From contig OZ316892.1 in the NCBI GenBank assembly GCA_973895155.1, positions 4,095,223 through 4,159,222 on the forward strand: a DNA stretch of 64,000 bases, written 5' to 3'. The notes below the pieces were generated by a model. The model did no database searches and was not told the origin of the DNA. It saw only the letters and a list, made by a program, of their open reading frames with translations. A program made the position numbers and the translations under genes. Source of the DNA: Marsupella aquatica. Its lineage: Eukaryota > Plantae > Marchantiophyta. Positions within the stretch are counted from its first letter, which is position 1. Each line of letters begins with the position of its first letter. Of this stretch, positions 211 to 43,371 are shown piece by piece.

Positions 211-681
211 TCCCGAGCGAAGGGGAGGGCTCTTCCCAACAAAAGCGTTGTCCGTCCGTCCGCAGGTCCTTTGTTTCGCACGGGACAGAAGGCGAAAACA
301 GGGCGTGATTCTTAATTTTCGTCAGTAGCTCGTTAGACCATGATAACCCAGAGTCCCAATTGCTGCAGACACATTCAAGTAAACTGCACCAGCCATCATT
401 GCATAAATTTTAGTACGTCAAATTCAAAGATCTCCGAATGCTGAACAAGCCCGTGCACAGACAGAATGCTCGTAAAGCTGAGTTTCAACAAAATGCTAAG
501 ACCTAACGAAATCGAGACAGAGAGTGAGTAGATCGAGCTAAGATTCCTTTCAAGAGAGCTTTAAAAAATGCTTCACCTGGTCGCGAACCTTGAACAACAC
601 AAAGGATTAATTGATAGAGCTCAGATTGCTGCACGAAGCCACAACAAAATGCATCAATCTGTAGTTGCAAACGAGCGCTCC

Positions 682-685
<4 letters not shown>

Positions 686-713
<28 letters not shown>
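686..713. repeat. (GA)n microsatellite, probably in the 5' region of the EER5-like gene
   Basis: Uninterrupted AG/GA run of about 14 units. Confidence 0.9.
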
Positions 714-716
<3 letters not shown>

Positions 717-3700
717 CACAACGAGACGTGGGTGCATCAACAGGCACTCAGAGAACGAGCTTGATTAGTTCAGTTGGCCAGGGAATGAGTATGACAAGAG
801 TGTGGGGCACTTGTGACTTTCATCACCAAAGCAAAGGGACATTTCTTGTTCTAGAGAGGGACTCCAGACCAGACCAAAGATCTTTCGAAATGATTGTGAA
901 CGTCATGAATGCAAAAGCCAAAGTCTGCAAACGTTTGTATTTAATAAATGCAATTCCCTTGAGTGAAGGACCAAAGTTTGCAAATGTGTTTGACTTTAGA
1001 CCATCTTCAAACTTTACAAGACTTTGGGTAACTCCTTGTTCTAAAGATACTTAATGGACCTCCAAATGAAACTTCTTTACTTAACCCACCAGAACGTGCA
1101 TATTTTTGCCCAGTGGACTCCGGGCCACCACAGGTACCATTTCATGTCAGATGTTCTTCTAATAAAATGTGCAGTCCTTAAAGTGCAAGAATGTCACTAT
1201 CAAAATGCAGCACGTTCTACTGTTCTTTGGTGTCCAAAGGCGTTGCCAAATGCAATTGACTACGACCGTAGTGTCGAATGAGCCAATGAATTGACATTGT
1301 GCATACACAGACTGCAGTGTCAAATGAACCATTTGTCGTGTGACCGTAACATGACATCGGGGGCACGACACATAGCATCGCAGTTAGATCTTGTATACAT
1401 TGACAATAATGTATAAACAGATCACAGTGTCAAATGAACCGGGCGTCGTGCAACCACAATACAATACAGAGCACCGTAGTTAGATTTTGTACACATAGAC
1501 ATCAATGCATACAAAATGTATTATATATGTTAGAGGACTTAGGGTTCAGGGTAACCAGAGAACACACGAGTAAAATCAAAATTGATATCTTGATTTGTTT
1601 TCTAAGTGTGAACTATGCATACAATGTGCATTGTGTATACATCACAGTCTTACTTCTATGTTGAATATGGTATGGTTTTGTTCATTTGGGCAAGTTTTGA
1701 CATCGTGTATACATCACAATCTTACTTCTATGTTGAAAATGCCATGGTTTTGAATTACTATGAACATTGTATACATTGTGCACCCTTGCATGCATGGTTG
1801 TTGTATCTGGAATACTAGAGCCACAATGTATTCTAAAAATCTGAGAGGCCGGCCCAAAGCACGACGCCGTAGGTGTGCTTCGATGCTGCCGTAAGGTCCT
1901 TAATGTATTTGTACTTATAATACAATAACCATATTGTATTCAACCAAACTAGGAAGCCCCTGCTTCATTGCCCAAGGGCTACGGCACTTGCATGATCTAT
2001 GCGCTGCATAGTTATCGTCTACCTTACTACACATGCCCATCCACAGTCCACACTATCGTATGGCTAATCAGTAAGCCTAAACTGTGTGGTGAACCCTTTC
2101 ACAAGAACATTGTTGTACGGAGTGGGCCCAGAGGTCCATTGGGCAAAATTCTGCATGTTTTGGTCAATTAAGTACAAATATTGTGTTTGGAGGTCAGTTA
2201 AGTATATATCTCTTCTAAAGATAGACTTCACGTTAATATAGGTCTTTTGAATTGTAAGCCTCCATAGGACTCCAGATTACCCAACGAGCTCATTTCACAT
2301 TTGTTCCTCCCTTGAAGAAAGCGGTTTGCCCCTGCGCCTCCCAGCAGCCGTCGACTTCCCACTCACCCTTGCGCATACTCTCCACCATTCGATGCAATCA
2401 AGGGCTCAAAAGAAAGCTCTCATCAAGATCTAAAATTGGTAAAAATTTCAGCCAAAACTTTTGAGTGTTAAGTGAGAAAAATAGAAAACCTGATCTCTTT
2501 GATCTTATTGGTGGATTTCAATTCCTGAGATCTTGTCCATCCATTCAAACTCTTGCTTTCTTGACCATCCGTTTTTGTTCCAGCCATCTCATTCTTCCAT
2601 TTCAGAAGACCATATAGGGCTCAAACAAAAGATCTCTGTCTGGGTTTTTTTAATTTAAAAAATGATTAACTTTTTCTCAAGATAAAAATAAATATAATTC
2701 TGATATAGGTCTGCCTGCTGGCCGTTTTGCTCTCTGTGAAAACTGAATGAGTATAATACCATACATTGGACAAACATGTGGGTATACACCTGTAGTTGTG
2801 GTGTAGTGCAACCCCTCAATGGGGCACTTGGACTTTTTTCACCAAATCAAAACCCTGAGATCAAAACGGATGGCCACTTCTTATTCTTATGACAGACTCC
2901 AGACCAAACCTCTTTTCAAATTAACTTCAATCAATGCAAATCTTTGAATGAAGGAGCCAAAGTTTGCAGTCCAGCATTTCCACTCTCCCTGGTTGCCTTT
3001 GTGACCCTCTTCTCTGGTATGGGATCCCCCAAGTAGATGCTATAGTGGGAGAAGTGCGATTGTCTCTACCATCCCTGTTTGATCACTTTGTGACCCTAGT
3101 TTAATCTTGTCTTGAAGAGCCTACAGGGTCACTTGTGTATGCCAAACTAAGATAATTGTCTAGGACGGATACTCTTGGCATGCACTTGATTGAACAACTG
3201 AGGATACCAAAGATGTTTCAGTCCTGTTGTAGGTCAATGTCTTACTGGGAATTGCTAGGAAATCAAATTTTAAATTTAAACCTGGTTGGCAACTAGGATT
3301 TGCCAACACAATCTTGGTTGGGATCCAAATATTTATACATGCCGAGAGTGTTTCAAATGAATTGAGAGCAGTGCAACAAGTGCATAACGGGCACATGACA
3401 TTGGACACAAGGTGGGGGAAAGTCTGAAGGAAGGTAGTCCAGGTTTAGTGTCCTATGTCATGATGCTCTCATTGGAAGGTGTGGATCAAATTGGATACTT
3501 GGGAATATTATCTCGGTGGAGGAGTATGAGTTTAGTATTTCAAATCATGACTGGGTTGGCTTAAACCACAAATCATACTACAAGTACTCCGGGTGACCCG
3601 AAGTAGACATAACAAAAATGCGACATTTGCATTTGCGGACGGGCGCCCATCGCCAGCCCTTCGATCAAAGCTTGCAGAAATCTTATCCGTTCACCAAATG

Positions 3701-4507
3701 ACCCAATCCACAGTTCAAATTCAAGATCTCTTCAAGATCTACGTATACAAAAAAACCAGGATTAAAAACGATAATAAAATAAGAAAGAAAATTATGAAAA
3801 ACAAATGCAATGTTCTGATTGGCAGAGCCACAAATTCAAATTTGAAAATTTCCGGGCAGGTCGGGCAGGGGACATCTGGCCTGCGGAAAATGCCTATCGC
3901 AGGGCTCTGTGCCCATATGGTCGGGCAACACAGGCCTTTGTTGTGTGGGACATGTGGCTAAAGAGGGCCCCGGCCCTGCCCTTGTGGGCCTGAGCGGCCT
4001 TCATTAGTTTACATATAGTTTTCGCTTTGTTCTTTTCGAAGATTTCCCCTAGCGTGTCGGTTCAAACTCTGTGTACTCGAGGTCTCAGGTTCAAAACTCG
4101 CAAGTGTCCTCTGTGTGACTTGGACCTTTTTGGCAGCTGCAGTGTGCGCTGCCCTATGTGGGTGGCGGAAAAAATTCTGCAATGTGAGTTAGCGTGGCGG
4201 CTGGTTAGGGAACATGTTAGGGTTACAAAAAAAATGCTTTGGACGACCAGGATCTAAGGGGATGTAGCCAATGGGGAAGAGGGGTAGAGGGCTGGCAGGG
4301 GGCAAAGAGCCTATGTGCTTGCATTCAGGCCTCATTGTCCTCCCCAAATTTTTATTCTCTCCTCTTACTATGTTTCTACTTGTGTTCAACTTGAGGTTTT
4401 TTGGTGCAACTTTGTAGTCCCTTGTCGGGTTGGACTTGGCATCCGGTCTCCATTCTCCGTTTAGAGCTTATAGGTTTTTTTTAGTGTAGGTTTTAGGATA
4501 GGCTAGT

Positions 4508-7500
4508 ATGAGTATTCTGGATGGGAGGCGGAAACGCCCCCCACAGGGTGGTGGTCCACCAAGGTAGCGATATCTGAGTGATGACATCAATTACAAGAAG
4601 AGGCGAAGACCGGATGCCAAGCCCAAACTCTGGGTCCCACTTGACTGGTGGGATGAGTGGGAGGACCTTAGAGCTTTACTTGGACAGGATATGACCCACT
4701 CTACTGTGGTCACATGGTTACTTGATCGTGCACGGCCTATAGTTCAGGAGCTTCGGGTATGGCAAGCAACTGAGGCCGCTCCAATTCCACCCGAGGCTAT
4801 GCCTTCGCCCACAAGTGGTCAGCACATGGGTCAGGCTTCACAGTCATCGCTTCAGGTGGGAACCTCCTTTCATTTACTCAATATTTACCCATTTTAGCAA
4901 TTCATTTTGGCCCTTTGTATAAACCCATTGATTTAGGCTTATCCTGTACTATGCTTCTTATTTGAAACATAAATAATAAATCACATTTGAAGGAAAATGA
5001 AAGTCTCCCATTGTACCAAGAAGCATAATTATTTATATTTGAATATATAAACCCTTCATTGAAGCTCGTGCTGTATTGTAATTTCCATTTGAAACAAATA
5101 TGTAGTAAACCTGATTAGGTCAGGTATTAGGGTACTCAAGGGTCATAATAAACAAGCACATGTATTTATATTTGAATATATAAACCCTTCATTGAAGCTC
5201 GTGCTGTATTGTAATTTCCATTTGAGACAAAAATGTAGTAAACCTGATTAGGTCAGGTATTAGGGTACTCAAGGGTCATAATAAACAAGCACATGTATTT
5301 ATATTTGTATGTTCCTTGGGTTCAAGCTTATGCTATACTGTGATTTCCATTTGGGTCATGCCTTGGGGGTCAGGTTTGTGTTTATTAAAGAAAATTGGCA
5401 TCAATAACCCTCCACCAATATGGTCAATAATTATTGGTCAAACTCTACCTTAGGATTTATTGTAACCATATTTGGGGAGTATTTATTTTTGTATAATCCC
5501 AACATTGTCTTCCAGGATGCACTACTCAAAGAGGATGTTGTCTTAGACGAGACTATTGCAGAGCAATATGTATCAGATGCAGAAGATGAAGCCATGTATC
5601 GGGATGATGACCCAGATGTTGTTGCAGCTTTAGGAGCTGACCACATTGGGGATGGGGATACCTTCCAGGTTTGAGCTCTTTCACATTATTTTGAAATTGT
5701 TGAGACACAATCTCTAATTCATATCCCTGACATTTTTTACAGGACTTGTTCATCGTCCCCGATTCCCAGACATCTCAACCTTCTCCAGATTTAGACCCTC
5801 AGCCATCTCCAAAGGCCAATGATCAGCCATCCCGGGTTGCAGACTCTCAGGCATCTCGCGCACCTGACTCTCAGCCGTTATGACCTCTCGACGCACTCCC
5901 AACTTGTAGAACGAGCCCTCGTGTACCAGCCAGGGTAGCATTTTTTGATCGCAACTTGTTGGGTACTTTTGTTGACAGGCTACTACCCCGGTGTCATACA
6001 TGCATGTCCTCGGTTTAGGGTTTGGGGTAGCGAGTGTCCGAGTTGCATCAGTTGTGGTCTATTCATATTGGTTGTGGAGAGGATGGACATGGCTGGACTT
6101 TTGTTACGGGTGACAATGAGCCTGGGAAGAGTATGCCTATGATTACCCTCAGTTGTATCATTCCACCCTTTGTATCCCTTTGCGCTAGCCTCACCTATAC
6201 CTCCTTGGCTGCTGTTGCCGCACATCTTGGATTACATGTCCCCACTGCAGCTCGTTGGCATGACTTTCAAAGTGGTCGTGGTCGTTCTTTTGGTGGATGG
6301 ATAGTAGCTGTGAGACAGCAATGGGAAGAAAACAAAAGGCATATGTGGCAGCAATTGAGGGATACTATTCAGCAGAGGCGAACGACTAAGACTAGTAAGT
6401 AATTTATTTTACTCTCTTTCACTTTTTCTAGTTACTCAAGGGTTAAAGTCTTATTGGGTCATGATGACTTTTGATTCTAATAGTTTGTATATGCATTGGT
6501 TATGACAGACCCTGGGTTAGTAGTGTATTTGGATACTCGATGGGATTCTTCTCGGAGCGGTTATCATGGTACCACCTCTATTTTGAGCATGGAAGATAAT
6601 AGGGTAATTGAGATGGTTACAAATACTAGAAGAGAGGAGAGAAATGCTTGGCACATGGAGGACAAGGGTACTCAGAGGGCATTGGATAATCTGAGAGAGG
6701 CTGGCATTTCTATCATAGAGGTTATCCATGATGACAAAGCCACTATTGATAATATTGTGGAGGACATGGAGATTAGGAACCAGAAGGACTTGTGGCACAA
6801 GGCCAAAAACCTTGTCAAGAAGTTTGTGGAGAAGATGGTGAGCGGCACATATACTGTGACTATTGACATTGATACTACCGCATCTCGTTCTGAGTTGCAA
6901 GCGGTAACCGCTAAGAGATTACAGGATTGGCTCAAGGCACGGGGAGTGAGAGGGTATTCAACCCTTAGGAAGGAAGCACTTGTTCACAAAGTTGGCAACA
7001 TGCGTGGATTGCCTCTAGGTGAACTGATACATATTTCGACACGTGGTCTCAAGTACCCAGAGTTGTCTCAGCACAACATTGCCACAAAGTTCAAGACCTG
7101 GTTTTATGTATGTTGTCGACGATGTAAGAGCAGGTATTTATAATGTTCATGTTTGGTGACTTTTCAATTTGATATAATGTGTAAATACTAATGTTGGTTT
7201 GGTTTGGGTTTATTTTACCCTAATTGACTATAGAATGTTCAATATGCAGTGGGGGGGGGGGGGGCGCTGCATCTCTGGCCCTCGAGTTGAGCAACTGTGG
7301 TGATCATTGGGCCGGGGATCATAGCTTATGTGCGAGATTATCTGACAGACCTTGTCAGCATCTTGAGGAACCAGGAGCTATCCAGCTTGACCATTACTAT
7401 GCAAGAGGTAAGTAATTTTGTGACCTCCTTTTGTGACTTATGTCACATGATTGTTAGCATGATTGAACTTCCATGCATGACCTTTTTTATTGAATTTTTG

Positions 7501-7870
7501 TACTTTGTGCATGTAGGTGGGGAGACTCACAAGGCTATGCAAAAGTTCATGAAAAAATACATTACTCTTGCGAATATGAAGTTTTATACCATGGCCCGGG
7601 AGAATTTCATGCCAGAGACCTACCATTCCGTCATGGGCAAGTATACCACCAAGCGTATTCATTTTTTGGCAAGCCACGAGGCCCATTTGTATTGTGCTGC
7701 CATGGATTGGAACGAGAATATAAGAAGACATGTTTAGAAGGTATATGATCGCACACCTGTGAATACAACTGTCAGAGAGCGTCCTCCTCAAACACGAGTA
7801 TTGGTGGACCGCACCACTAGTTGGAAGGACACAACAAGTGAACGCATTTATGGTGTGACAAGTCCATGAG
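4508..7870 (+). pseudogene. Kolobok-type DDE transposase, multi-exon, with in-frame stops
   Basis: GT-AG exons ~4508-4855, 5516-5668, 5743-6394, 6509-7133, 7250-7407, 7517-7870. Motifs: WEDLRALLG..TWLLDR; CHTC..C..GH.W; LDTRWDSSRSG (cf. GDGRxDSPG); IHDD (cf. TDRH); DLWHKAKNL (cf. DVWHVAKS); PETYHSVMGKYTTKRIHF..AAMDWNEN (cf. LExFHS..YxPKR..LDHNEN). Stops include TAG at 4565. Confidence 0.8.
5030..5310. repeat. Tandem duplication (~137 bp x2) in the first transposase intron
   Basis: tatttatatttgaatatataaacccttcattgaagctcgtgctg... occurs at ~5030 and ~5165. Confidence 0.85.
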
Positions 7871-8384
7871 GTAAGACACTCCTCCATAAATATGATTGCA
7901 AGCATAAAATGTAAGGATAGGGTATGTTTGAGGTAATTCTAATTACAAATTGTTTTTTTGCAGGATGATTTCATGTCATCCTAGATGCTCAGACATTACC
8001 ACCCAAGTGCTGTCTCTCTATAAGGTCAGCGTACATATGGAGTAACACCTCCATATATGACCTCGGCTAACATGTACCTCATGTGAGTGAAAATTGTGAC
8101 TTGTTCTTTTTGGAAACAATTCATTATAGTGTGAAAATTTATCATTTTGTGTACCTCAATGCTAATTTTATTATTTACCATTGCAGGGGTGATTTCCTTG
8201 AGGAGGGCTGAGACCTAGCACCACTTGTATTTCAGCCTTTTTGCATGGATAGTGTTAGCAATCCAGACTTGGGGGTACCCTATTACTATCAACTTGGAAT
8301 GCTATGCCAAAATTTCAAACTTTTATAAATTATGTTTTTTGTCAATTTTTCTCATACCATGCCCAAACAGTCTTATAACTTGGG

Positions 8385-8785
8385 CACCAAGTGAGGGAAT
8401 GAGAAAAGTTTAGAAGTGGAGCACCAAGCGAGGGAATGAGTAAAGTTTGTGGTTATTGAATAACATATGGCATTTCTGGGCAGCTTTGAGAGGTAGTAAT
8501 CATCTGGGTCCCTTTGCCAACCTAGTGATGGAATGAGAAAAGTTTAGAAGTGGAGCACCAAAGTGAGGGAATGAGTAAAGTTTGTGGTTGACATATGGCA
8601 TTTCTGGGCAGCTTTGGAGGTAGTAATCATTTGGGTCCCTTTGCCAACCTTGTGATGGAATGAGAAAAGTTTAGAAGTGGAGCACCAAAGTGAGGGAATG
8701 AGTAAAGTTTGTGGTTGACATATGGCATTTTTGGGCCGCTTTGAGAGGTAGTGATCATTAATTTGGGTCCCTTTGCCAACCTTAT
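8385..8785. repeat. Tandem repeat (~130 bp x3) between the Kolobok transposase and KolX
   Basis: ggaatgagaaaagtttagaagtggagcacc...gggtccctttgccaacct repeated three times. Confidence 0.85.
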
Positions 8786-9058
8786 CTCATTTTGGTTTCA
8801 TTGAATATGTTAACATCTGAAGGGAATTGATCTTTTCATGCTGCCAAACAAAAGCAAGAGTTGTCTCCCTGTAACAGGTGCAATTGCGATGCACAATATT
8901 TCAAACAAGAGTTCTCTTGGAAAAATTGCAATTGTGGTATCTCTAACCCATGTCTAACCCATGGCCATGTACTCCCAAGGGGAATTGAACCCCTTTTGCT
9001 GCCAACCAGCAGGAGTTATACTCTGCAAACAGTTTATTAGAAGATCTTGGCGGAAATT

Positions 9059-9499
9059 TCAAACAAATGTGAAACATATATAGCAGAAGCCTTTGTACTC
9101 CTCATTTGGGATAAATCCTACAAATTCCTCCCCTTCATCATGCCAACTTGCCTTCACACAAGCTTCAACAACTTTGGGAAACTTGGTTCTATCAGAAAAC
9201 CCTGCTATGTAAGCCAAGTGAGTGTAGACCTGAAATCTTTTCCTTCTCATGACAGTTTCAGCATAACTATATGCTGCGCACATGATAAATTGTTTCATCG
9301 GGACTACAGGATTGAGATCCATGTGACACTCTGAAATTGTAGTAGAGAATTCAGGAAAATCAGCTTGGACTTGTTCCAATGTGACAGTCCGAACAATAGG
9401 TGGAGCATCGCCAACATCAGCAGGATCCTGCCAACTCAAGGTGTAGGTCCCGTTTTCATGTTCAGTCAATGTGGCTCTCAACTTTCTAATTGGTGCCAT
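9059..9499 (-). CDS. KolX-like (P2X7 C-terminal 'ballast'-like) second protein of the Kolobok element
   Basis: ORF ends RRKRFQVYTHLAYIAGFSDRTKFPKVVEACVKASWHDEGEEFVGF, matching the KolX pattern R..AYR.F....G...R..IP.CV...IR..FP...G.Y.GF. It is opposite-strand and convergent to the transposase inside the TTAA boundaries. AG acceptor just before ATG 9499. Confidence 0.65.
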   Translation of the reverse strand: MAPIRKLRATLTEHENGTYTLSWQDPADVGDAPPIVRTVTLEQVQADFPEFSTTISECHMDLNPVVPMKQFIMCAAYSYAETVMRRKRFQVYTHLAYIAGFSDRTKFPKVVEACVKASWHDEGEEFVGFIPNEEYKGFCYICFTFV

Positions 9500-9774
9500 G
9501 TTCCTGAAAAAATCAAACACTCAAATATCACATATGTTGTTGCTGCCCAACACTCACATACAATATGAATTCAACAATAGAGATCCAGCAGAGAGACCGA
9601 CTCAAATCACCCAAAACCAAATCTGACTCATTGCAACAAGACATGAATACTACATTGCTCGAAAATTGACATTGCAATGTAACGAAGGAGGAGAGGGGAC
9701 CAGAGAGTTGATACTATCCCTAGTGAAGCTGAAGCTGGAATGTGGGCACAACGACATGAGCAAGGAGCTTGTTA

Positions 9775-10720
9775 GCTACGGAGCGAGCGACCTTGACCTA
9801 TAGCAACGAGCAAGCTTGAGCAGCAATCGAGCTTGGTGAGGGACCCCGAGGCAGAAGCAAGTTGAAGCAGCAAGCGAGCTTGGACAGAGGCAGCAACAAG
9901 TTGAAGCAGCGAGCTTTGACCGAGGCAGCAGCGAGTTGAAGTGGCGAGCTTCAGCAGCAACAGCCGAGGCTGTAGCAAGATTCAGCAGCAAGCTTGGACC
10001 GAGGCAGCAGCGAGTGAGGGCAACAACGAGTTGAAGCGGCGAGCTTCAGCAGCAACAGCCGAGGCAGCAACAAGATTTCAGCAGCAAGCGAGCTTGGACC
10101 AAGGCAGCAGCGAGCGAGGGCAGCAGCAAGTTGAAGCGGCGAGCTTCAGCAACAACAGTCGAGGCAGCAACAAGATTCAACAGCGAGTTCAAGCAATGAG
10201 TTGAAACAGCAAATCTATTCAACAGCAAGTTGAGTTGAAGCACAAAATTGATTCAGCAGCGAGATCAAGCAGGAAATCGAGCAACAACAGCGAGCAGGGG
10301 CAGCCGAGAGCTTTGCGAACAGGGGCAGCCAAGGGCGCAGCGAGTAAGGCAGTCCGTGGATGGCTATGGCAGTCGTAAGCTCGAAGGGAGGAGGCCATAC
10401 ATTCAGCTGGGAGGCAGGAGCGAGCCTCGGCAGCAATAGCCTCAGCAGCACCGAGTTGAAGTCAGCAGCAAGTCGAATGAAGCAGCGAGTTGAATGAAGC
10501 ACCAACAGCCAAGGATGCATCAAGCTTCGGCAATCGATTGAGTGGAAACAGCAACCAGGGGCAGCAGATGGCGCAACGAGCATGGGCACACTGTGGCTGG
10601 CTATGGCAGCCAAAACCTCGAAGGGAGGAGTGTGAGAGGAGGCCAGCAGCTCGCAGGGGTCGAAGGGAGGAGCGCGGGAGGAGGCGAGCAGCTCGCAGGG
10701 GCAGCTCGTTGCAGTCTAGG
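9775..10720. repeat. Low-complexity CAG/GCAGCAA-rich degenerate tandem repeats at the right end of the Kolobok element
   Basis: Repeated gcgagcttcagcagcaacagccgaggcagcaacaagattcagc-type units; spurious ORFs in many frames. Confidence 0.75.
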
Positions 10721-11772
10721 GCTGGTGGGGGAGGGGAGGGCGGTCCTGCTGACCCCGGGTTAGTCCCTCGGGTTCGAACTGGTCTCTGACCCAGCGGGCA
10801 GGGCTCGGGGTCCTTATGTACCCCGAGTTGTGGTTTAAGGGTTTGGATAGTATTGGAACTTGAAAACTTGTGGGGAAAGAAACAGGAATTTAGTGGCTTA
10901 CATATGTCTGGGCCAACTATATCCACGGCATCAGCATAGGCTCGAGCTAGAAGTTCTCTATATGTTTTAGCATTTTCAGTAACCACCTGGATGCCATGGG
11001 CACCATACTGACCTACTTGTAGTTCTTTCAAAGGTTAGGGGGTGAATCTGGTTCTATCGTGACACTTCAGGTCTCCATATATTGTTCTTTTTAGGTCGAC
11101 ATTCTCGTTGGTTTGTTGTTTGGTTTTCACTTGTTCTGGCATTTAAAACTTGTGTTGGGCTTTCTGGGGTTACAATTACACTTACTCTATTACGTAGGGC
11201 ACAAGCCAATACTACAAGGTACACTATTTACCATACTCAGTGTTACTACAAATATAGTGTAACAGGATTATGCGAGTAAGGAAGTTTTGAAACTCAACTA
11301 ACATTAATTACAGAACATACTAACATAACACTAAAATCAATGATTCCTGTGAGAATACACAATACACATTTGTAAATGGAATAATGATTAATGTAATGTA
11401 ATGGTTTAGTTAGGCTCTCTCATTTAATGCATTCATGGTCTATGTTATTGTCTAAAAATTCTAGTTTTTCATAACATTGTCATCTCACACTTTCCACACC
11501 CAAATAGTGTGCCTACCTGACAACAAGATTCATTGTTTCAAGCAATATTTTGGGTATCAATCTTCCCACCACAAATAATGTGAGCTGAATGTCCCCTTTT
11601 TGGATCACTTGCAATTAATAGCTTACTGATAATACTGAGTAAGTGTTAGTGACAATTTTTTGTGCTGTTCAAATTTTTGGAAGTCACACAATTAGTGTTA
11701 GTAACACTATAATTTTTAATAATTTAAAAAAAATAAAAATGTAAGGGGAAATCTGTAAAACCCCACAGATAA

Positions 11773-28240: not shown

Positions 28241-31200
28241 CTACTCATCAATTATACCTTCCATGTAAATTTTGAGAGTTTTCAAAACATTCTTAGAAAT
28301 TGTCAAACCTCTATCCATAATATTTTGTTCTTTAGCACCTGACTTAAACCCATACATTGCAGAATTTGCAAACTGCCAACTTTGAGTAACATTGTCAAAC
28401 CCAGGATCCAGCTCCCAAGTCTTAGTGGTTTGAAAGTAACGTTCATATCGAACATCATCCTTTGCATCATGCTTACCATGTTTAGGCCTCCACCATTGTA
28501 CTTGGAACATAGGAGCATTCCTCTTAGGAATGCTCTCAATAGACATTGAAGAAGACCCTTCAATATGTTGCAAATCTGTTGAGGGAACCTCATGGTTTGG
28601 ATCCACACCACCCAAAGCTTGAACCTTTGCCATTTTCCTGTTCCCATTCATCCTCTGGACGTAAAAATACAAAGTGACCTTCTTGAATATCTTGTAGAGG
28701 AATCCACCTTGCAGGTTCTTGCTCTTGTCGTGCACCAACAAAGGGTGCAGCTTGATCTTCCATCTCTTCCATGTACTCATTTTGAAGGTCCATCATCTCT
28801 GGATTTTGATAAGGTTCACTTGACGGCTGAGATGTCCCCAAAATCATCTTGTAACCTGTGCCATGGTTAGTCTTTGGCCAAAAATCAGTTGTCAATGGCA
28901 ATTGTCTTTCCCCCTCCCCTTCTATTGTAAGTTCCTCGGACAGTGCTTGCACAAGATTCTTCCAATATTTGACCAGAGGAAATCTCTCTCGATATGCTGC
29001 AGAGGTCTCATCCTTACAACTTTTCTTCAAGAAATCAATATAGCGATTAAGGAATGGGATGATTTCTCCAGCCTTCTTTTGTACATCCCCAGATATAGGT
29101 TTTGCAAATGGTTGGCCTTCCGGTAAAATGAGCGCATTTGTGATGGGATTAGTTCTCCAAATGGACCTCCCCATTGCCGGAAGCCAAGGTTGCTTGACAT
29201 GTGCTTTATATTGATACACTGGCACATTATCCCTCATGGAGAAAAGAAATGCCACTGGTTTTGAGTGACCTTGTATCTCTTTCACCTGGAAAGTTTTCAA
29301 ATACTCCTTCTAAGATGCAACCTCTTGAATCAATCGTGGTACAGGATGAATGCTTTCACACTCCCAAACCTCAGCCATCAACCCCAAGAGGGTAGCAACC
29401 TCTTTGTATCTGACTTGTTTGGATACTTGAGAAAATAATGCATCCACGTCTTCATGGGTGTGGCCAACCATGAGGAATGACATTTGCACAGTTTCAAACA
29501 CCCCCTGCTAACAAGCTCAATGCAAAATGCCATCACATATTGATTTTTGTTATCTTTCCCTGAATTGTCCATCTGCAACGTTAGGTGCCTTGGTAAGGGC
29601 TTGAAAGAGCCCCTAGTAGTCTCAGGATCATCCTTAGAACCAACATCCACTGTGCTTGACTTTTTAGTCTCCTGACCATCTTCAATGCCTTGAAATCGAA
29701 CAATTGAAATATTTTTGGGTTCCAAGTAACCGGCCAGAAATGCTTCAAAGTCTAGAAGGGACTGAAATATTGGCCTAGTTGCATTCCAATTCAATCCTTC
29801 AAGAAGGTCTCCAATTTTGTCTCCTGTGTAATCTTCCAAATCTTAGAGGCATTTGGCCAAAGATGTCACGGTAAAGTCTGCATCTCCAGGCCAAAGTCCA
29901 GTCAAACTAAAATGTGCATACACTCCAGGATCTCTTCCATGGGTTAACATCCCAGTAAGAGCAATAGGCAAAGGCTGACCACTACCAGAGAGGGATTTTG
30001 GAGTGGGGACCAACTTGGGGATCCAAGTCTTGGCTTGATCCATCTTATCATGAATAATGCAAAGATAGTTTTGAGGATCCTTCTTTGCAAGAACCCTATG
30101 AGCATAGTAAACATATCTTCTTGACATTTGTTCACGAAGATGTCGCGCTCTTTTCTCTTCAATCTCTGCACGCTCTTTTTTTCTCTTCTCCCGCATCAAT
30201 TGATCTTTGAACTCAGTGCAAAACGTGCACTTAGCAAATGCACTTCCCTTGTGAAAGTCAAAATTATCAAATGAGTTTTTCCAGATGTTGTACATAGTAA
30301 CTTCAGTAACCTTAGCAAACCCATCTAATTCCATCTTGGTAAACACCTCTTGGAAAATCTCCTTCTTAGTAAAACAAGATGGGAGCCGATATTCAATAGT
30401 GTCAGTGCCGTTGGACCCACCATAGGGAAGATGTGGCATTGGTTCCCCATTTTGGATTAAAATGGACTCCAACAAGGCGCGAGCGTGCAAAGTGCTTGAT
30501 CGTGTCTTCCGTTGTGGAAACCAATTGTGCAACCAGCTTCGTATTGATTTTTGTAGTCATAGTACTTTGTTGTACTGAACCCATGCATTTTAATAAATGC
30601 ATCTTTACAAACCACACGTCCCTTTAGAACAAAAAATCCCTTTCTCTTGACTTGCTCCTCTCTACACCCAAAGAGACTAAAGATGTGACTTGTTTTGTTG
30701 TCACTTGACATTCCATGGTATTCCCTCCTCATTGCCTCTAAGTCCTCCCTGCGCATGTTCAAGCAACACTTCAGCTTGCAACAACCTTCTCTTTGGATGG
30801 AATCAATGGACTCCTCGGTAATTTTCAAAAGTGCCCTCGACTCCAAATGCCTTTTCTTCTTCTCCTCAAGATCAACTTTTGTCCTCCTCATGAAATTGTA
30901 TGGTTTTTTTGTAGGTTTACCATCACCATCTGAATCCGGATCGCCCTTAGTTTGACCCGACTCCATCCACTTCTCTGAAACTTCCTCAAGGATATCCCCA
31001 AGAAACCTTTGAGACAAAATCAATAGAAGGGATTTGATTTCCCACCTCACCAAGCCAGGGGTACCAACACGGATATTTGGAAATAATCCAGGTTCATTGA
31101 TATTCACAACAACAACACCAACATGATCTGCACCAAGAAGTTCATCGTCAATGGCACCTGTTTCAAATGGGACCGTGATAACACCTGTTGCAACCTTTCG

Positions 31201-31929
31201 ACAATGAGAAGCGTCATACAAATCAACCTCCTCCGCCATCCAGTTGGAACGTAGTGTAAAATCTTTTAATGGAAGATCATTGAAAATATTTGAACTACCA
31301 AACATGCCAAAATCTCGTAGAGTGCCCTTTCTAGAAACATGCGCAACATCCCAGATAACTTAGGTATGCAAGGCCTCTTCTATTGTATCAGCTCCAAGGT
31401 GCGAGTATGGCAATTTTTGATTTCCCTTAACAATATCAGATATTCTTATACTGATGCAACCAACCCCGAGTCTTTCAGTATGACAAATATCCATCGGATT
31501 TGTCTTGAAAATGACTCCATTTGCAACCAACTGATCAAAAATGAACATCTGAACTTCATCTCCTTCCTTGAACACGTCCTCTTCAACCCTTGCATCAATT
31601 TTGGATTTATCATTTCCAACATCTCCAGCCAAAGAGAAATCATCGACATTGATTCTTCGACGCTGAGTTGATGACCTCAAGTATGCCAATGCACAATCCC
31701 AAATCACGCAGGAGTCAATTGCCTCAGCCAATGTAGAAAATTTGGGTGAAGGAAATGGAAGTTGATGCGATCCATCAAAACACTTTTTGATCAATACCCC
31801 AATTTGATTATCCCCTAGATAAATGTTATGTATAGTATCCTGGGGGTCAATCTTTTGAACTATCCCAATTGCCATTTCAAATCCATCGATCACCAATGAC
31901 ACTTCATCCCCTCATGTAAAATTGATCAT
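28241..31929 (-). pseudogene. Sola-type DDD transposase (DUF7869-like) with three N-terminal Tnp1/EnSpm-like domains; frameshifted
   Basis: Consecutive ORF fragments: CCKLKCC..GRVVCKDAF; FAKCTFC; catalytic IIHDKMDQAK, LTLQMDNSGKDNKN, FLMVGHTHEDVDALFS. N-terminal repeats AIGIV..LG..IGV..VIWD, VANGVI..LG..VIWD, VATGVI..LG..VGV. Confidence 0.82.
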
Positions 31930-34183: not shown

Positions 34184-35865
34184 ATGGAGCAAGGGGCGGA
34201 TCCAGCCGGAATGTCTACTTCTCGCGTCTCTAAGGGGCATTCAACCTCAACATCACCTGCACCTACTCCGGTTAAAGCCCCTGTGAGACGATCGAAGAGA
34301 AAGGAGGTCCCTATTGCCATGAAAATTCTGAGGCCAACTATTCCGGACAGTGAAGCTGAGAAGGTTAAACTGAGGGAGTCTTTGCTCAGGATGGGCTGTG
34401 AGTCTCTGATGGAGCTACCTTGGAGTTATCAAAGCGAAGATATGATCAGAGAGATCCGATCTAAGGAGTATCGGGCTGAGTTTAAGGATACCTCCAGAGT
34501 CCATCACCTGAGCGATGGACTCAGATGATGATTGCAGGAGCTTTTGTATTGGAAGATGAAGGAGAAGGTCCAGTGGGGAGAGCTGTCAATCTAATCCTTC
34601 CTTACTTCAAAGGAGCCATCAACAGTAAGGACGGGTTCAATGTTTCTAAGTGTTTGGATCCTGATCTGAGACGAGTCTTCAGCTTTCTGCTACCCCTGCT
34701 GTACCCTGAGAAGCCAAGAAGAGTTACTGTTGGAGTTGGCTCTACCATTGTTGTTGCTTACAAGGGAGAAAGAAAAGTCAACTGGGCTAAGCTTATCTTT
34801 GATTTGATAAGGAAGTTGGTACAGAACCTATCCAACAAGAGTCCTACTCCCCTCTCCTGCTACCTGGTACATCTATATAGCTTTGAAGGAGTTTTGTTCA
34901 GAGAGGAGAAGAAATTACTATTGGCCAAGTACAACTTCATCAAGTATGGAGAGACAGATCCAGATATCACCCAGGCCACCTCTAATGACAGTGAGGATGA
35001 GGAGCCAGCAAAGAAAAATCCTCGAAAGACCCGGTCTGCTGCCCGGAACCTCGATCCGGACTTTTCCGACCCGGCCTTCGTCGACCCGACTGAATTTCCG
35101 GATGCACCCGGCCATGCCTCCCTAGACACCCTAGCTGATTTCCAGATCATCTCAGACACATTCCAGAAGGTGAAGAGGAAGACCACTGTAATGGAGAAGG
35201 CCATCACTGACATTTCTCAGAAGTTAGGAGTGAAACCAGGGCAGATTCTTGAGAAGATCTCCACCATGAGTGATGCCACAGATAAGAGGAAGTTGGAGAA
35301 GGAGAATGAGTTCCTCAAGAAGAAGGTATCTGAACTCAAACAGCAGTTGGAAAGGAGTAAGAAGAAGAATGAGCTTGAGCATACTCTCCAACTCAGTATC
35401 ACTCAATCTTTGGATCTGATTGAGCCTTTGACTAAGATAGCTTCTCTGGATCTTCTTAAGGCCCAAATTTATGATGAGTATTTGGCCAAGAACACCACAC
35501 CCATCCTTTTCTCCAAGATTAACCATTTAGTGGTAGATGTGAGTACCAAGGTGGATGATGCACTTACAGGCCTCTCAAAGACCTGTGAAACCTTAACGGA
35601 GATGAGTGACTTGACTACTGAGGAGCTATTAGCTGATACTGAGATTCCTCCCTTTACTACCAGATCTTTCTCTCCTAGTCCTCATGAAGGAGTCTATTCC
35701 ACTGGCCCCTCATCACCCCTCAACCCTCCTGGTTTCCCCACTCCCAGTACACACTTCCACTCCCATTCTTACACCTATTCTCATGACCCAAGTGCCCATC
35801 AGGAGAACATGGATATTGACCCGTCCATCCCTTTTACCACTGGCCAGCAAGGAGTTTTCCTTTGA
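34184..35865 (+). pseudogene. Gypsy accessory (non-gag/pol) coiled-coil ORF, one frameshift near 34500
   Basis: MGCESLMELPW..EDMIRE..SKDGFNVSKCLDPDLRRVFSFLLPLLYPEKPRRVTVGVGSTIV..RKVNWAKLI..PTPLSCYLVHLY, then a coiled coil; resembles accessory ORFs of bryophyte Gypsy elements as recalled. Confidence 0.6.
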
Positions 35866-37068
35866 CCAGAACCCCTTGCCATGGCTAACCCTGAGGAGGT
35901 TCCTTCCCAAAAGCTAGGACCAGAATAGAGTTATATTTAGAGAGTTAGAGCCACATTAGTTTAGACTTAGAAATATCTATATAGATTAGTATATGACTAA
36001 GTAGACTCCAATATTTTGTTGATGTATCCATTGGAGACTCTACTCCATTTTTGACTAGGATAGTTCGCTTTTATTTACATATTTATTTAGACTTGGGTTT
36101 TGAAGAGGCATGTCTTTTCATAATCTCCACTTTTAGTACAAAAGGAGGAGAACCCAAAGTCAACAGGGAGAGAAAACATACATTTTGATTTCCTCATTGC
36201 CTTTGAAGGAATCTATGTCTTTTCTTCCCTTCCTTTTTACCATGGTTGAGTAAAAGGAAGAAGTTTAGCAACCCTTGAGTTGTTGTGAAGTGTTCAATGA
36301 ATGCTAGAGTGTGCCTTAATGATATTGAAAGATCAATGAGATTTGTGATCAATACATTTGGAAGATTCACCAAAGAGGAAATTGACATTTGCACAAAACC
36401 CAAACAAGCAATCTTAAGGATTGTAGGAGAAGTAAACCAATTCGAGTATCCTAGTACCGTCTTAAGCAAGACCAGAAAAGTGTCCCGAGTTGATTTACAT
36501 TGTTGTCTTCTAAATTCAATAGATGGAGAAGAGTTGCTACAAAAAATCAAAAAGCATAGAAAATGTTGATTTCTGAATCTTAAATTAAGCCATAATCCTT
36601 ATTGAAGGAGTGGTGATGGTCAGAAATTCAATTCCCTTGCACTTTGAAAACTCCTATCTACTCTCTCTCTAGTTTCAATTTTTGTTAATTCTAGTCTTTA
36701 TTATTGCACTGTGAATCCTAAGGATTACCCACTTGAGTTTGTGGTTAAACACTTATGTTAAGGAGATCACTAGAAATCTCTCCAACCTAAGAATGTTGGT
36801 GTAAACTTCTCAAATTGTGTTAATTCAGTCTTTTTGATTTTATCCACTCCTAACCGGAACGAAATCGAGTTGTTAAGGAGTAAATAGTCATTTATCTCTT
36901 TATCACCTTGCTACATACTACACCCATTTTGGCGCCGCTGCCGGGGAGTAACTGAGATCGGGAGACCTGCCGCGACAGTGGATGTCAAAAGGAGATCAAC
37001 AAAAACAGTCAAGAAGTAACGGCAAAAAGGTACTTGATTAAGGAAAAGAGGCTGGAACCTCCTAAGTT

Positions 37069-37956
37069 ATGGTGAGGAGAAGTCGACCTCAAAAGAGGGA
37101 GAGAGCCCAAATCAAGTCAAGAGAGAACCAAACCCAAAATATCAAAGATGCTACTACACATTCAAGAGCAACAATTGTGAGAAGTAGTGGAGGAAGTTAC
37201 TTTTGGGGAGGAGAATTGATTAAAGTTGATTCATGGGACACGAATGTTTTTCTTGATTGTTTGTTGATTTTTAGAAGATTTGTAAATGGTAGATTCGAAT
37301 TGGTGGAAGCCACTTATGATGAAAAATTTGACAAGGATTGTATTCCTGATTTATTGAGGGACCACCACATTGAAGAGGAAATCCTAGACATAGAAATTGA
37401 AGAGGAATTAAAGGAAGCATTGGCAACATTGAAAGGAGATCAATATTGGAGAAACAAGCTTGACAATGTACTAGTGAAGTTCTATGAGAATTCAAATGTA
37501 CTTCTAAACGAAGAGAAGCCTGTTGTGACTTTGGAAAGGCAAGAGTTGATAGGAACATTGGACCATTATAATAGAAACGGTTGGATTCTACTCAAATGGA
37601 AGGATTGGAGGGCAGGAAAACCCTGTTTTCAATGGAGTTCCCATTTGCCAGAAATGTTTGATTTGACCAATGTTTTAGTATTGAAGAGACTTTGGATTGA
37701 TGATGGTGAGTATAAGTTATTACCCATCAAGGAGGAGAATGATTTTGAATTTCTGTTAAAGAAGCACAAGCACCATACTATTTGGGCGTCTGAAACAGAG
37801 GAAATCAAAATCAAGGAGACGTTAGCCGTATTACATGAGATTAGTGAACCTTGGGTAGATACACTTGATTTCCTAGAAAATCTATTGAATGGATATAGGA
37901 CGTTAGTAGAGCAAGTGGTGTTGAATAATGGATTCTTCCAAGTAGATTTAAATTGA
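37069..37956 (+). CDS. Uninterrupted 295-aa ORF of unknown function just downstream of the PBS (possible extra 5' ORF of the retroelement)
   Basis: ATG-initiated, no stops, globular composition; followed by an 88-aa ORF at 37966-38232; no motif recognised. Confidence 0.5.
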   Translation: MVRRSRPQKRERAQIKSRENQTQNIKDATTHSRATIVRSSGGSYFWGGELIKVDSWDTNVFLDCLLIFRRFVNGRFELVEATYDEKFDKDCIPDLLRDHHIEEEILDIEIEEELKEALATLKGDQYWRNKLDNVLVKFYENSNVLLNEEKPVVTLERQELIGTLDHYNRNGWILLKWKDWRAGKPCFQWSSHLPEMFDLTNVLVLKRLWIDDGEYKLLPIKEENDFEFLLKKHKHHTIWASETEEIKIKETLAVLHEISEPWVDTLDFLENLLNGYRTLVEQVVLNNGFFQVDLN

Positions 37957-38514
37957 TACCCCAAAATGCCGAGACCCCAACCAAGATCACTTGGTAGTTT
38001 TAGAGTTCAAAACATTAGGGATTCTTATTTGCGAACGAGAGTACTCAGTCTAAGAGGTAGACGAGGGATTCACTGGTTATCAATCACGTGGTGGGAAGGA
38101 GATCTCCTACATTTAGTAATTCTCAAACTGAACGGAAGGATCAGTGGAGAAAGATACATTGTTATTTCAATTTCAGAATTGGCCAGAGACCTCATGACCA
38201 GGAGGAATGATAGGAGAAGAGATCAGCAGTAAGAAGATTGTCTTTTTGGAAGAGGAAAAAGGGAGAAGAAGAGACCCGGACCAATGTCCAACCCGGACCC
38301 GGACATTTGTCCAGGTAGGCCATTGTCCGACCCGGATCAGAAGCCGGGTCTGAACCGTCGTACCCAAAAGGCACCCGGAAACTCAAGAGTAGGAGGTAAA
38401 CGTCGTGACCTAGGGAACCTCAGGGTGGACCCTCGGCAAGAAAAAGAGGAGTATGTCCAGGAATCTCATGAGGATCGATTCATTCAATTATTCCAATCAG
38501 ATTTATGAGTTGGT

Positions 38515-41500
38515 ATGTCAAACAAAGGAAAGTCAAATTGGAGAAAGAAGAGTAACGTTGACTCTGAGGACGAATCATCAGGAGTGACATCAGTGCAGCC
38601 ACGACAATTATTTCCTGATTCACCACCTGTTGGGATCGTTTCTGATCGACTAACGGAACTCCAAGATCGATACGGAAAAGGGAGTATTGAAAACCCTACC
38701 TCCAGTCGTCCAACCTACATTAATTTAAGATCTGGACCTAAATTGGTACCACCAACCCAGATTGGTAGGGGATATATACCCACGGGAAGAGGATGTCAAA
38801 AGTCTACAAGTTTAGACAGATTGAAGACCACATGTCAATGTTAAAAATATGATGTTGACCATTTTGTTTTCAATGTTTCTTACCAGAAAAAAATCTTGAG
38901 AAGCCGGAGTTAAATATTATGGATGAGGATATCAAGGACTTTGTTTTCCCTGACCAAGATACTCCAGGATTTAGATGGGCACTAGAAGTTGGGGTGTCGG
39001 CGAAAGGCAGTCTCTTGATTTGTTTCAAGGGCCTCACAAGTCAATTGAATGACCGCAAGACAATTGTTACTCTAGGTCTAGTCGTCCTTGTGAACACGGA
39101 CAACAACCGCAATGCAACAATTATTGTTGAGTCCAATGAGAAATCTCAGTGGATGAGACTTCTGGTGCCAATAAAACTCTACTCGACTTTACTGAATGTT
39201 GAGTGGATGGCTTGATTGGAGATAAGCGTAGCTGATATGGGATTCTTCCCAGATGGAGTAACAATTGATCAGATGTTTGAGAAGACGCATTCTCAAATAA
39301 GTGGAGTTGACCTAGTGTTTGGATTTCTCTACGTAAAGAAGCACATGCATGACAATGCGGACAGTGTGGACCCTCCGTCTACTTGGATAGTTGAAAGGAT
39401 GATTGAGAAGGCACATTTTTCATACGAGCAAGCAATCGACAAGAGTTTCATTTTTTGTCCAGAGTTTCAAGAGGCCGCATGCCGGACGTGGATTTCAGAG
39501 ATGAAGAAAAAAGAAGCAAAGCATAAGGCAAAGGAGAGAAAGAAGACAATGGAAAGAAGCGCGCAATCAAAGACAGAGAAGAAATGAAAGCTTCGAGAGC
39601 CGGTTGTTCAACAAGAGAAACAATATGGGAGTTCACGCCGTAAGAAGATGGCTTAAAAAAATGAAGATGATGAGGGCCCCCAAAAAAAGCAGACAAAGAA
39701 GGCAAAGGTTGCAAAATCAAAACCAATGTCAGCGTCGACTTCAAACTTTGTCTTGCATCCAGAGGATGATATGTGTCCGACAGAAGGACCCAAAGAAGAT
39801 GATGTGCTCAAAGGCCAAGAGGTTTTGCGTAATATTGAGCAGTATTATACTTTTGGCATCCGCAAAGTTTTTGATATTCCTGTAAAAAGTATTATTCCGC
39901 CATCGGCCATTTTTGTATATCGAATGTTCAATCTTTTGCATGCAATGGAGATATCAAAGTCTATGATGAAAAACCCTGGATAGGAACCATAAGTTGCTGA
40001 TTTGATTCTGTATCACGAGAGCACTAAATAGTTGCTTCTTATGACAACACACCTCAAGATAGGAAAGAGTTTTTGATTGGTGTGAAGAAGCATGAGATCC
40101 AATTCCTTGCCATCAGTGGCCAGCATTCTGCAAGAGCTGCCCAATGGATCCAAGGGGGGGCCGAGACTGACGCCAAGCTGACAGATCTTGCCAACAAACT
40201 AAAGTATAGGAAAGCAAGGATCCTATCTGACCTCACTCCGAAGACAATTTTGGTTGAGCATTCAAGTTTATCGAATGCTGTCAATGATACTATGCAATTT
40301 AAGTCTTGTTTTTTAGAGACTATTGTTCATGCACGAAGGCAGTTTGAGGAGTGCGGGAAACCGCCGCGTCCAAGGATTGGGACCAATCAAAATACAGACA
40401 GGAAAAACTATCAGGTACATGTTGGAGCAACACAAACTATTCTTGATCCGCTTTGTTTAAAGATTGTCAGTGGTAGAGGTTTGCCTGGCCCCAAGGGCGA
40501 GACTGCCTTGTCTTGTTTTCCTTGGTTAGAAGATTAAAGCAAATGTTTGCCTCGCCCTCAGGGCAAGGTAACCTAGACTAGTCTCTCTAAGAATAATTCC
40601 CTAGTTCCATTTCAGTCAATTGCGGTTAGATGTAGAGGTTCGCCATGCCCTTGGGGCGAGGCGGCTTAGCCTGTTTCAAACATAGGTATAAATTTTCTAA
40701 TATATGCATTGTACCCTGAAACTAATGTCAAGTCCATTGGATATGCAGGATTGGTTTGCCCTTGCAAAGGTTACAATGGGGAAGTCAAGCCTAAAGAGCA
40801 TTTATTGGTTACTTTTTGCCGAAGATGAGCTCTTTGAATTATGGCGGAATGTGTGTGCAAAATGGTTGAGTGGGAAGCTCCAAGATGGGGCTGGTGGGTA
40901 TGGAGGGCCAAGACCCCCAAAATTGATCACTCCCGGTACCTTCGATGCTTTGAAGGAGAGATTAGTAGCAAACAGATAATTGAGATCTTGAAGGACGTTG
41001 AAGAGGAGCGTGCCTTGCTGAAGAAGGATATCACCAACAAATCAGAGCTTGTCGCAATGGGAGACTTGGCCCTTACAATCAAGATAATGTCCAAATTGAG
41101 AACAGTCATTATTGGCTATTTCATGGAAAAGTATCGTGAGAAGTTTCCTGTTGGCACATCTTGGGAGTCTCTGGTGATATTGTTGCCTTCCTTGAAATCT
41201 GAGCTTGAGATGACAAAATTGAGGAGAGCAGCGGGTGAGGTTTACCTCAACAATTCATTGAAGAAGAATGTGGTCAAGGAGAGTTTCCCACAAAGTCGGA
41301 TGGTCAGACTAGATGGGGTGTATTGTAAAGAATTTGGTGGGATTGGTCGTTCTCGCACGGAGCCTTTCTTGACATTTTTTAGTGATAATTTGATGAAGAC
41401 GACCGTGCCGGAAATGCTACAAGAGCCTTCGCCTTTGTGTCCTCTTGCCATTGTTGACTTCAGTAGGCTCCGACAACATGTTTGGACCGATGCTGAAATT

Positions 41501-43027: not shown

Positions 43028-43371
43028 CCCTTTCTTTGGTTCTTGGTATTTTAATGACAATCTAAGCTTTGTCTTTGTAATAATATACTTTTTTACAGAC
43101 CAAAGTTCCATCGTAGAATCTCCTTCCTCAAAGGATTTTGTTGGCATTCCCTCGAAAAGCGTTGCTGTGGACGAAGGGTTTGACCCAGGTATACTTTGGA
43201 TCTAAAAAATGACAAGTGAATGTAATTAATGTTTTTCTAGGAGGGTCGCCCCAGGGTCGTTCCTCTCTACTTCAAATGCTATAACAAAGTTTGTTTGATT
43301 TCAAATTTTGAGAGTTTTCCTCCGTAGTAATTGTTTAAACTTTGAGTCGCATTGACTAAAGGCTTATTTTA

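What the first reader, a model, noticed from the sequence alone, without database searches (positions are those of the whole stretch)
3561..10838. Complete two-gene Kolobok-like transposon in a land plant, with atypical AC..GT termini
Seen: TTAA on both sides, short imperfect TIRs, a spliced DDE transposase and a convergent small ORF. Established: Kolobok elements make TTAA TSDs, encode a transposase plus KolX, usually have 5'-RR..YY-3' ends, and are mainly described from animals, fungi and protists. Inference: this is a divergent plant Kolobok lineage (ends 5'-ACCAC..GTGGT-3') with at least five spliceosomal introns, implying long residence in plants or an old horizontal transfer.
Basis: partly seen in the sequence, partly recalled or inferred. 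Interest (0 to 1): 0.75.

Follow-up and report, generated by a model that had tools for sequence, protein, structure and literature searches.

The report
Kolobok-like jumping gene in liverworts
This is a broken copy of a real, multi-copy DNA transposon in a liverwort-like plant; it likely belongs to an undescribed green-plant branch of the Kolobok transposons, a group described mainly from animals, fungi and algae, and its transposase carries an extra SAP motif, of a kind that usually binds DNA.

Summary
The element is real: 3565-10834, with TTAA on both sides. The 7-bp inverted end alone is at chance level. Public contigs settle the ends: other copies leave the window sequence at the TTAA on both sides, and an empty site holds one TTAA. 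Five predicted GT-AG introns give one 762-codon transposase frame, but it has five stops, so this copy is dead, not autonomous. The host is liverwort-like. Named relatives are in Riccia, Calypogeia, Chara and Closterium. The transposase has D-D-E, DxxH and the Kolobok-type zinc finger, plus a SAP domain inserted in the catalytic core. It resembles Kolobok in target and motifs but fails the RR..YY end rule, and no tree with known Kolobok could be built. The second gene resembles KolX by eye only. Verdict: new variant of a known kind. The scan noted Kolobok elements and cysteine-poor KolX-like genes on other genomes before; none it listed was from a plant.

The parts
3561..3564 (.). left TTAA (target-site duplication)
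   Evidence: sequence; other copies join here with unlike flanks, and the empty site has one TTAA
3565..3595 (+). left end: 7-bp perfect inverted repeat core (3565-3571) and loosely matching extension
4508..4855 (+). transposase exon 1 (predicted): small conserved N-terminal helical domain; stop at 4565
   Evidence: family profile match E 1e-14
5018..5353 (.). 133-bp tandem repeat inside predicted intron 1 (4856-5515)
5516..5668 (+). transposase exon 2 (predicted; acidic linker, weakest support)
   Evidence: keeps the frame with GT-AG ends; little homology support
5743..6394 (+). transposase exon 3 (predicted): pre-catalytic Cys/His motif; stops at 5881, 6016, 6028; local frame slip against other copies
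   Evidence: indels at 5995, 6023, 6028 in contigs (table 4)
6509..7133 (+). transposase exon 4: first D (6532), second D (6730), DxxH (6787-6798), SAP insert (about 6890-7000)
7250..7407 (+). transposase exon 5: H-H-C-C zinc-finger motif (about 7305-7355)
7517..7869 (+). transposase exon 6: catalytic E (7615); stop at 7735; natural stop 7867-7869
   Evidence: contigs of all 4 runs read G at 7736 (table 3)
8386..8783 (.). about 127-134-bp tandem repeat between the two convergent genes
9059..9499 (-). second gene, 146 codons, convergent; cysteine-poor, tail KolX-like by eye; likely about 14 codons longer than its relatives
   Evidence: acceptor-like site just before the ATG
9846..10187 (.). GC-rich degenerate repeats upstream of the second gene
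10804..10834 (-). right end: inverted repeat, perfect core 10828-10834
10835..10838 (.). right TTAA (target-site duplication)
   Evidence: 6 contigs of X1 diverge behind 10838 (table 7)

Best explanation
This is a decayed copy of a multi-copy, TTAA-flanked DNA transposon in a liverwort-like plant, and it likely belongs to an undescribed green-plant branch of, or sister to, the Kolobok superfamily. Shown: the ends, the duplicated TTAA, many copies at different sites, an empty site, and the stops in this copy. Inferred mechanism: in intact copies a spliced RNase H-fold D-D-E transposase binds the short ends, cuts the element out and inserts it at TTAA with a 4-base stagger, which duplicates the TTAA. 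The SAP domain inside the insertion domain likely adds a grip on AT-rich DNA. The convergent small gene is likely a cysteine-free KolX-type helper of unknown role. This copy could move only with a transposase made by another copy. The lineage likely came down from streptophyte algae.
For: Ends, copies and empty site. Spliced frame colinear with Riccia P0001. D, D, DxxH, zinc-finger and E motifs line up across relatives and read like Kolobok rows in Data S5 of PMC9587614, for example the DxWHKAK stretch of Kolobok_1_NV1p and the HWxGDHS..C stretch of Kolobok_1_CCri_1p (by eye). That paper says the zinc finger between C/DxxH and E marks nearly all Kolobok and is absent in MuDR, P and hAT. The model of P0001 (mean pLDDT 82.9) matches the C/DxxH clan: P element E 3e-4, ISCth4 4e-4, Hermes 6e-3. 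piggyBac ranks far lower (Z 6.2 against 12.3 and 11.5). SAP: 19 of 54 aligned sequences match Pfam SAP, and the profile hits the Ku70 SAP domain (E 7e-5). Named relatives in Riccia, Calypogeia, Chara and Closterium.
Against: The ends are AC..GT, not RR..YY. No known Kolobok sequence could be placed in a tree or profile comparison. The best structural row is ISCth4, an IS256/Mutator relative (Z 12.3, rmsd 6.9, 315 aligned), tied with Hermes (Z 11.5, rmsd 4.3, 244 aligned). The only transposase family that Pfam names is PF20700 'Mutator-like' (11 of 54, best E 3e-7). A protein cluster with Pyramimonas and Prorocentrum records sits nearer the liverwort rows than Chara does (long branch), which does not fit simple descent. 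Introns are predicted only.
Confidence: 0.8

Rival explanations
1. It is a separate superfamily-level lineage of the C/DxxH clan that targets TTAA like Kolobok but is not nested in it.
For: AC..GT ends break the Kolobok rule. About 131-159 residues lie between DxxH and the zinc finger in all 18 of 26 rows where both motifs were found, against about 60 in Kolobok_1_XT1p (my count). The 150 best profile hits all had a best match among the plant and algal references.
Against: TTAA duplication, zinc finger and motif wording all match Kolobok. The 2022 paper already describes Kolobok as many diverse lineages. The 1118 weaker hits were not listed, so the link outward was not seen.
Confidence: 0.1
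2. It is an unusual MULE/Mutator element.
For: Weak PF20700 'Mutator-like' matches. The atlas's nearest clusters carry PF20700 on 12% and 31% of members, with scores under 0.9. ISCth4 is the top structural row.
Against: A 4-bp fixed TTAA duplication, whereas MuDR duplications vary in sequence and are 8-11 bp (recalled). No MULE, Transposase_mut, DBD_Tnp_Mut or SWIM match among the 14 families hit by 54 sequences. The zinc finger before E is said to be absent in MuDR. From recall, PF20700 covers Kolobok-type proteins; no paper with that accession was found.
Confidence: 0.06
3. The ends are parsed wrongly: the duplication is TA and the element runs AACCAC..GTGGTT, which obeys RR..YY, with TTAA only a target preference.
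For: The two parsings give the same filled and empty sites, so sequence alone cannot tell them apart.
Against: No displayed loose-end row joins at 3562 or 3563, or short of 10838 (many rows hidden), so the outer T and A look fixed. The motifs fit Kolobok, which duplicates TTAA.
Confidence: 0.12

Closest known systems
Kolobok superfamily, Kol0 lineage (type Kolobok-1_XT; Kojima and Bao 2022, PMC9587614)
   Same: TTAA duplication, short inverted ends, DDE transposase with C/DxxH and a zinc finger before E, no second CCHC finger after the first D, and a second small gene
   Different: Ends AC..GT instead of RR..YY; SAP domain inserted between DxxH and the zinc finger; second gene lacks the 7-cysteine cluster; liverwort host. 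The paper lists only chlorophytes and rhodophytes as plant hosts.
Kolobok_1_KlNi_1p and Kolobok_1_MicRcc299_1p (rows in Data S5 of PMC9587614; that KlNi stands for Klebsormidium nitens is my reading of the label)
   Same: Kolobok transposases from green algae
   Different: Both carry the second zinc finger after the first D, which this lineage lacks, and neither shows a long insert after the DxxH position (by eye)
KolX and the KolX-like proteins of piggyBac-2_GrCh (Data S6 of PMC9587614)
   Same: The last 26 aligned residues match piggyBac-2_GrCh_2p without gaps at 7 positions, and both families end just after a GF pair (by eye)
   Different: No Pfam P2X7-tail or PDB match by sequence; the N-terminal half is a predicted three-strand unit of unknown kind
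ISCth4 (IS256), Hermes (hAT) and P-element transposases
   Same: RNase H fold split by a helical insertion domain
   Different: 8-12% identity; their targets are not TTAA and their duplications are longer (recalled)

Membership tests
Kolobok superfamily | TTAA 4-bp target-site duplication | tested here: met
   filled site, other copies and empty site; a TA parsing cannot be excluded by sequence
Kolobok superfamily | termini 5'-RR..YY-3' | tested here: not met
   inside TTAA the ends are AC..GT; a related left end in X3 also starts ACCACAA (row 3586); rule
Kolobok superfamily | DDD/E transposase with C/DxxH signature | tested here: met
   D393, D459, D478xxH481, E679, conserved in relatives; fold
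Kolobok superfamily | zinc finger between C/DxxH and the last E | tested here: met
   H-H-C-C motif from H612; strict pattern found in 19 of 26 rows; by motif only
Kolobok superfamily | transposase groups with known Kolobok on a tree | not testable with these tools
   no Repbase or Dfam Kolobok sequence could be loaded; the tree has no outgroup
Kol0 lineage | second protein is KolX (P2X7 ballast fold, 7 cysteines) | tested here: inconclusive
   tail matches by eye; model weak in that half (pLDDT under 50); one invariant Cys in 5 sequences
KolobokP, E, D, H | long terminal direct repeats, or a His-Me, lambda-type, DnaQ nuclease or RecQ accessory protein | tested here: not met
   no long terminal direct repeat; no such Pfam domain in the ORFs scanned
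MuDR/MULE | long (8-11 bp, recalled), variable target duplication | tested here: not met
   fixed TTAA
MuDR/MULE | MULE or Transposase_mut domain | tested here: inconclusive
   only weak PF20700 matches; ISCth4 tied first by fold
piggyBac | TTAA duplication with a DDD transposase lacking C/DxxH, and YY..RR-type ends (recalled) | tested here: not met
   DxxH and a final E are present; piggyBac fold Z 6.2 against 12.3

The most novel reading that the evidence does not exclude
A distinct, unnamed transposon lineage of green plants, sister to or deep within Kolobok, handed down from algal ancestors into liverworts. It is marked by a SAP domain built into the catalytic core, AC..GT ends and a zinc-free KolX. 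It was abundant in liverworts and Chara and was lost from flowering plants, so standard plant repeat annotation misses it and calls its genes 'SAP domain proteins'.
Probability: 0.35. Interest if true: 0.7.

Novelty: new variant of a known kind. Interest (0 to 1): 0.5.

Why it matters
Kolobok is described from animals, fungi, protists and a few algae (PMC9587614). A 2025 screen of 1007 plant genomes looked for it and reported active elements from seven other superfamilies only (PMC12973397). A TTAA-duplicating family in leafy and thalloid liverworts, with kin in Chara and Closterium, extends the group to land plants. It would also show that the RR..YY end rule is not general. Many Riccia gene models named 'SAP domain-containing protein' are transposases of this family, which matters for annotation of early land plants. 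A TTAA-specific plant-native transposase could interest tool builders if an intact copy exists.

Tried and rejected
Whole genome: none is held, so copies were judged from contigs of 4 public runs (2 studies; one may be the window's own source). No RNA holder listed. Second gene: no Pfam match that makes sense, no PDB sequence match beyond weak formate-dehydrogenase rows, no usable atlas hit, no fold match (best Z 4.1; no E under 0.001; P2X7 not listed in either, on a low-confidence model). No related loci in metagenome or viral contigs. Intron-position conservation, tested through gaps in relatives' gene models: 10, 7 and 6 boundaries near introns 3-5 against a mean of 5.3, no signal. The inverted repeat as sole proof of the ends: rejected. 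No second copy in the window's first 13 kb against the whole window. Papers: no description of Kolobok in bryophytes or land plants in searches; none on SAP in a DDE transposase or on PF20700. Three angiosperm papers list 'Kolobok' only as a small automatic repeat class. Repbase and Dfam could not be searched and may already hold this family. Figure S6 of PMC9587614 (KolX alignment) is a picture and was not seen; PMC3093488 is not held.
Full report
Observation. TTAA stands at 3561-3564 and 10835-10838. Between them lie 7,270 bases that begin ACCACAA and end with its reverse complement. That 7-bp match is not rare: 4 of about 14,700 TTAA pairs in the window match as well. No host assembly is held, so I laid contigs of 4 of the 5 listed public runs on the region. 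Summed contig depth rises inside the element; in X4 it is 10-19 in the flank bins 2800-3387 and 11032-11325 and 231-3463 between them. The tool warns that this is no copy number. At the left end, contigs with unlike flanks join at 3559-3561: 8 in X2, 7 in X3, 2 in X1 and 1 in X4. One X1 contig joins at 3566. Of 49 loose-end rows, 24 were shown. At the right end 6 X1 contigs diverge behind 10838 (24 of 531 rows shown). In X3 a contig runs from 3552 into 10831 through one TTAA and goes on with the right flank: an empty site, slightly different from the window's flank, so an allele or a paralogue. X4 holds the filled left junction (3484-3605, one difference). The ends and the duplication are therefore real.

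Transposase gene. Exons 4508-4855, 5516-5668, 5743-6394, 6509-7133, 7250-7407 and 7517-7869, with five GT-AG introns of 28-33% GC against 44-55% in the exons, give one frame of 762 codons. It aligns with Riccia P0001 over residues 9-659 (35%, E 4e-134). The introns are predicted from homology and frame; exon 2 has the least support. The frame has five internal stops. Contigs of all four runs read G at 7736, and three nearby indels in exon 3 separate this copy from others, so at least these defects are not shared by the whole family. The commonest differences are A>G and T>C, and CpG is depleted (0.44 of expected in the gene). This fits methylation-driven decay of this copy (inference).

Host and relatives. 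An adenylate kinase in the window is 89% identical to a Calypogeia fissa protein, 83% to Marchantia paleacea and 80-81% to Riccia; other listed plants reach at most 81% (the top row by E-value is a 418-residue Cynara protein at 73%). The host is thus likely a leafy liverwort. Exon 4 finds 9 proteins, 8 from Riccia sorocarpa and 1 unnamed (38-43%). A profile finds 1268 proteins at E up to 0.001, of which 150 were listed. I looked up 20 of them: 5 Riccia, 1 Calypogeia, 5 Chara braunii, 3 Closterium, 1 mixed cluster with Pyramimonas and Prorocentrum transcriptome records (one is probably a contaminant), and 5 unnamed. No moss, fern or seed plant appeared, but 20 of 1268 cannot show absence. The tree (26 of 30 rows; P0220, P0227, P0266 and P0294 left out as too short) separates Chara from the rest at 100/100. 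It gives the window row no supported small group and puts the Pyramimonas cluster, on a long branch, with unnamed rows on the liverwort side. It has no outgroup. Long residence in streptophytes is likely; transfers are not excluded.

What kind of transposase. The window protein has D393, D459, DxxH at 478-481, an H-H-C-C motif from 612 and E679. Kojima and Bao (PMC9587614; main text parts 1-5 of 6, Data S5 and S6 read) define Kolobok by TTAA duplication, RR..YY ends and C/DxxH, and note a zinc finger before E that MuDR, P and hAT lack. By eye the motifs follow the Kolobok rows that lack the second zinc finger. The model of P0001 falls in the C/DxxH clan, with ISCth4 and Hermes tied (Z 12.3 and 11.5) and piggyBac at 6.2. 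No Kolobok structure appeared in the lists, so the fold cannot choose within the clan. Pfam gives only weak PF20700 'Mutator-like' matches (11 of 54). The new trait is a SAP domain between DxxH and the zinc finger: 19 of 54 sequences match Pfam SAP, and the profile hits the Ku70, Tho1 and MKL1 SAP structures. The window's own insert scores only weakly (Rho_N, E 0.09). The spacing of 131-159 residues holds in Chara too. A small N-terminal helical domain is shared across the liverwort-side proteins; it looks like a ribbon-helix-helix to me (recalled, untested), and an earlier scan note describes an unnamed N-terminal domain in an oyster Kolobok, which I could not compare.

Second gene. ORF 9499-9059 has 4 unnamed relatives at 50-66%. 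Three of them end right after GFxxN, so this copy likely reads 14 codons past a lost stop. Its tail matches the KolX-like protein of piggyBac-2_GrCh at 7 of 26 ungapped positions (by eye), and it has no cysteine cluster. The model is weak in that half. I put KolX kinship at about 60%.

Mechanism. Shown: mobility with TTAA duplication and fixed ends. Inferred: cut-and-paste by the DDE enzyme with a 4-base stagger; end binding by the N-terminal domains; SAP as an added contact to AT-rich DNA; a helper role for the second gene; two inward-facing promoters. A C precedes TTAA in 5 of 8 left flanks in X2 and 3 of 7 in X3, a possible weak CTTAAG preference.

What is known. PMC9587614 names chlorophytes and rhodophytes as plant hosts, and Data S5 has a row whose label I read as Klebsormidium, of another sub-type. 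PMC12973397 (passages and section 4.1) screened 1007 plant genomes for 17 superfamilies, Kolobok among them, and reports active clusters from seven others. Xenopus Kolobok ends are AG (PMC6004289, passages with Table 5). PMC11735767 (passages) gives only broad repeat classes for Riccia. Three angiosperm papers list Kolobok as a minor automatic class (passages). PMC13565253, PMC12676858, PMC8616336 and bioRxiv 2021.09.26.461848 were seen as passages and add nothing on plants. My ten searches found no account of such an element in bryophytes, but Repbase and Dfam were out of reach.

Verdict. It works like a Kolobok element. It is not filed as a strict member, because the RR..YY rule is not met and no tree test was possible. 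It is a new variant of a known kind; this copy is dead. Interest 0.5.

Noticed in passing
window 3599-3642: Contigs in three runs share the first 35 bases of the left end and then turn to another sequence, and some rejoin at 3634-3642: sister subfamilies or non-autonomous elements with the same end.
   Followed up: no
window 3440-3560 and 10839-10870: The target is itself a repeat: other copies in X1-X4 lack the element, some with CTCAAG in place of CTTAAG.
   Followed up: partly
window 28241-31911 (-): A broken transposase-like gene with a DUF7869 match (E 2e-10), probably another DNA transposon.
   Followed up: no
window 37066-44383 (+): A run of long ORFs without Pfam matches (one of 729 codons) that ends in a NIF phosphatase-like ORF (E 1e-11); possibly a large unannotated mobile element.
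   Followed up: no
window 44859-47744 (+): Decayed copia-type retrotransposon pol (gag_pre-integrs, RVT_2).
   Followed up: partly
window 58112-58846 (-): An intronless adenylate kinase gene, 89% identical to a Calypogeia fissa protein; used as host marker.
   Followed up: yes
P0152 cluster: Near-identical transposase records are filed under both Pyramimonas and Prorocentrum transcriptomes; one is probably cross-contamination, so the true host is open.
   Followed up: no
window 34486-35865 (+): A 459-codon ORF with no Pfam match.
   Followed up: no
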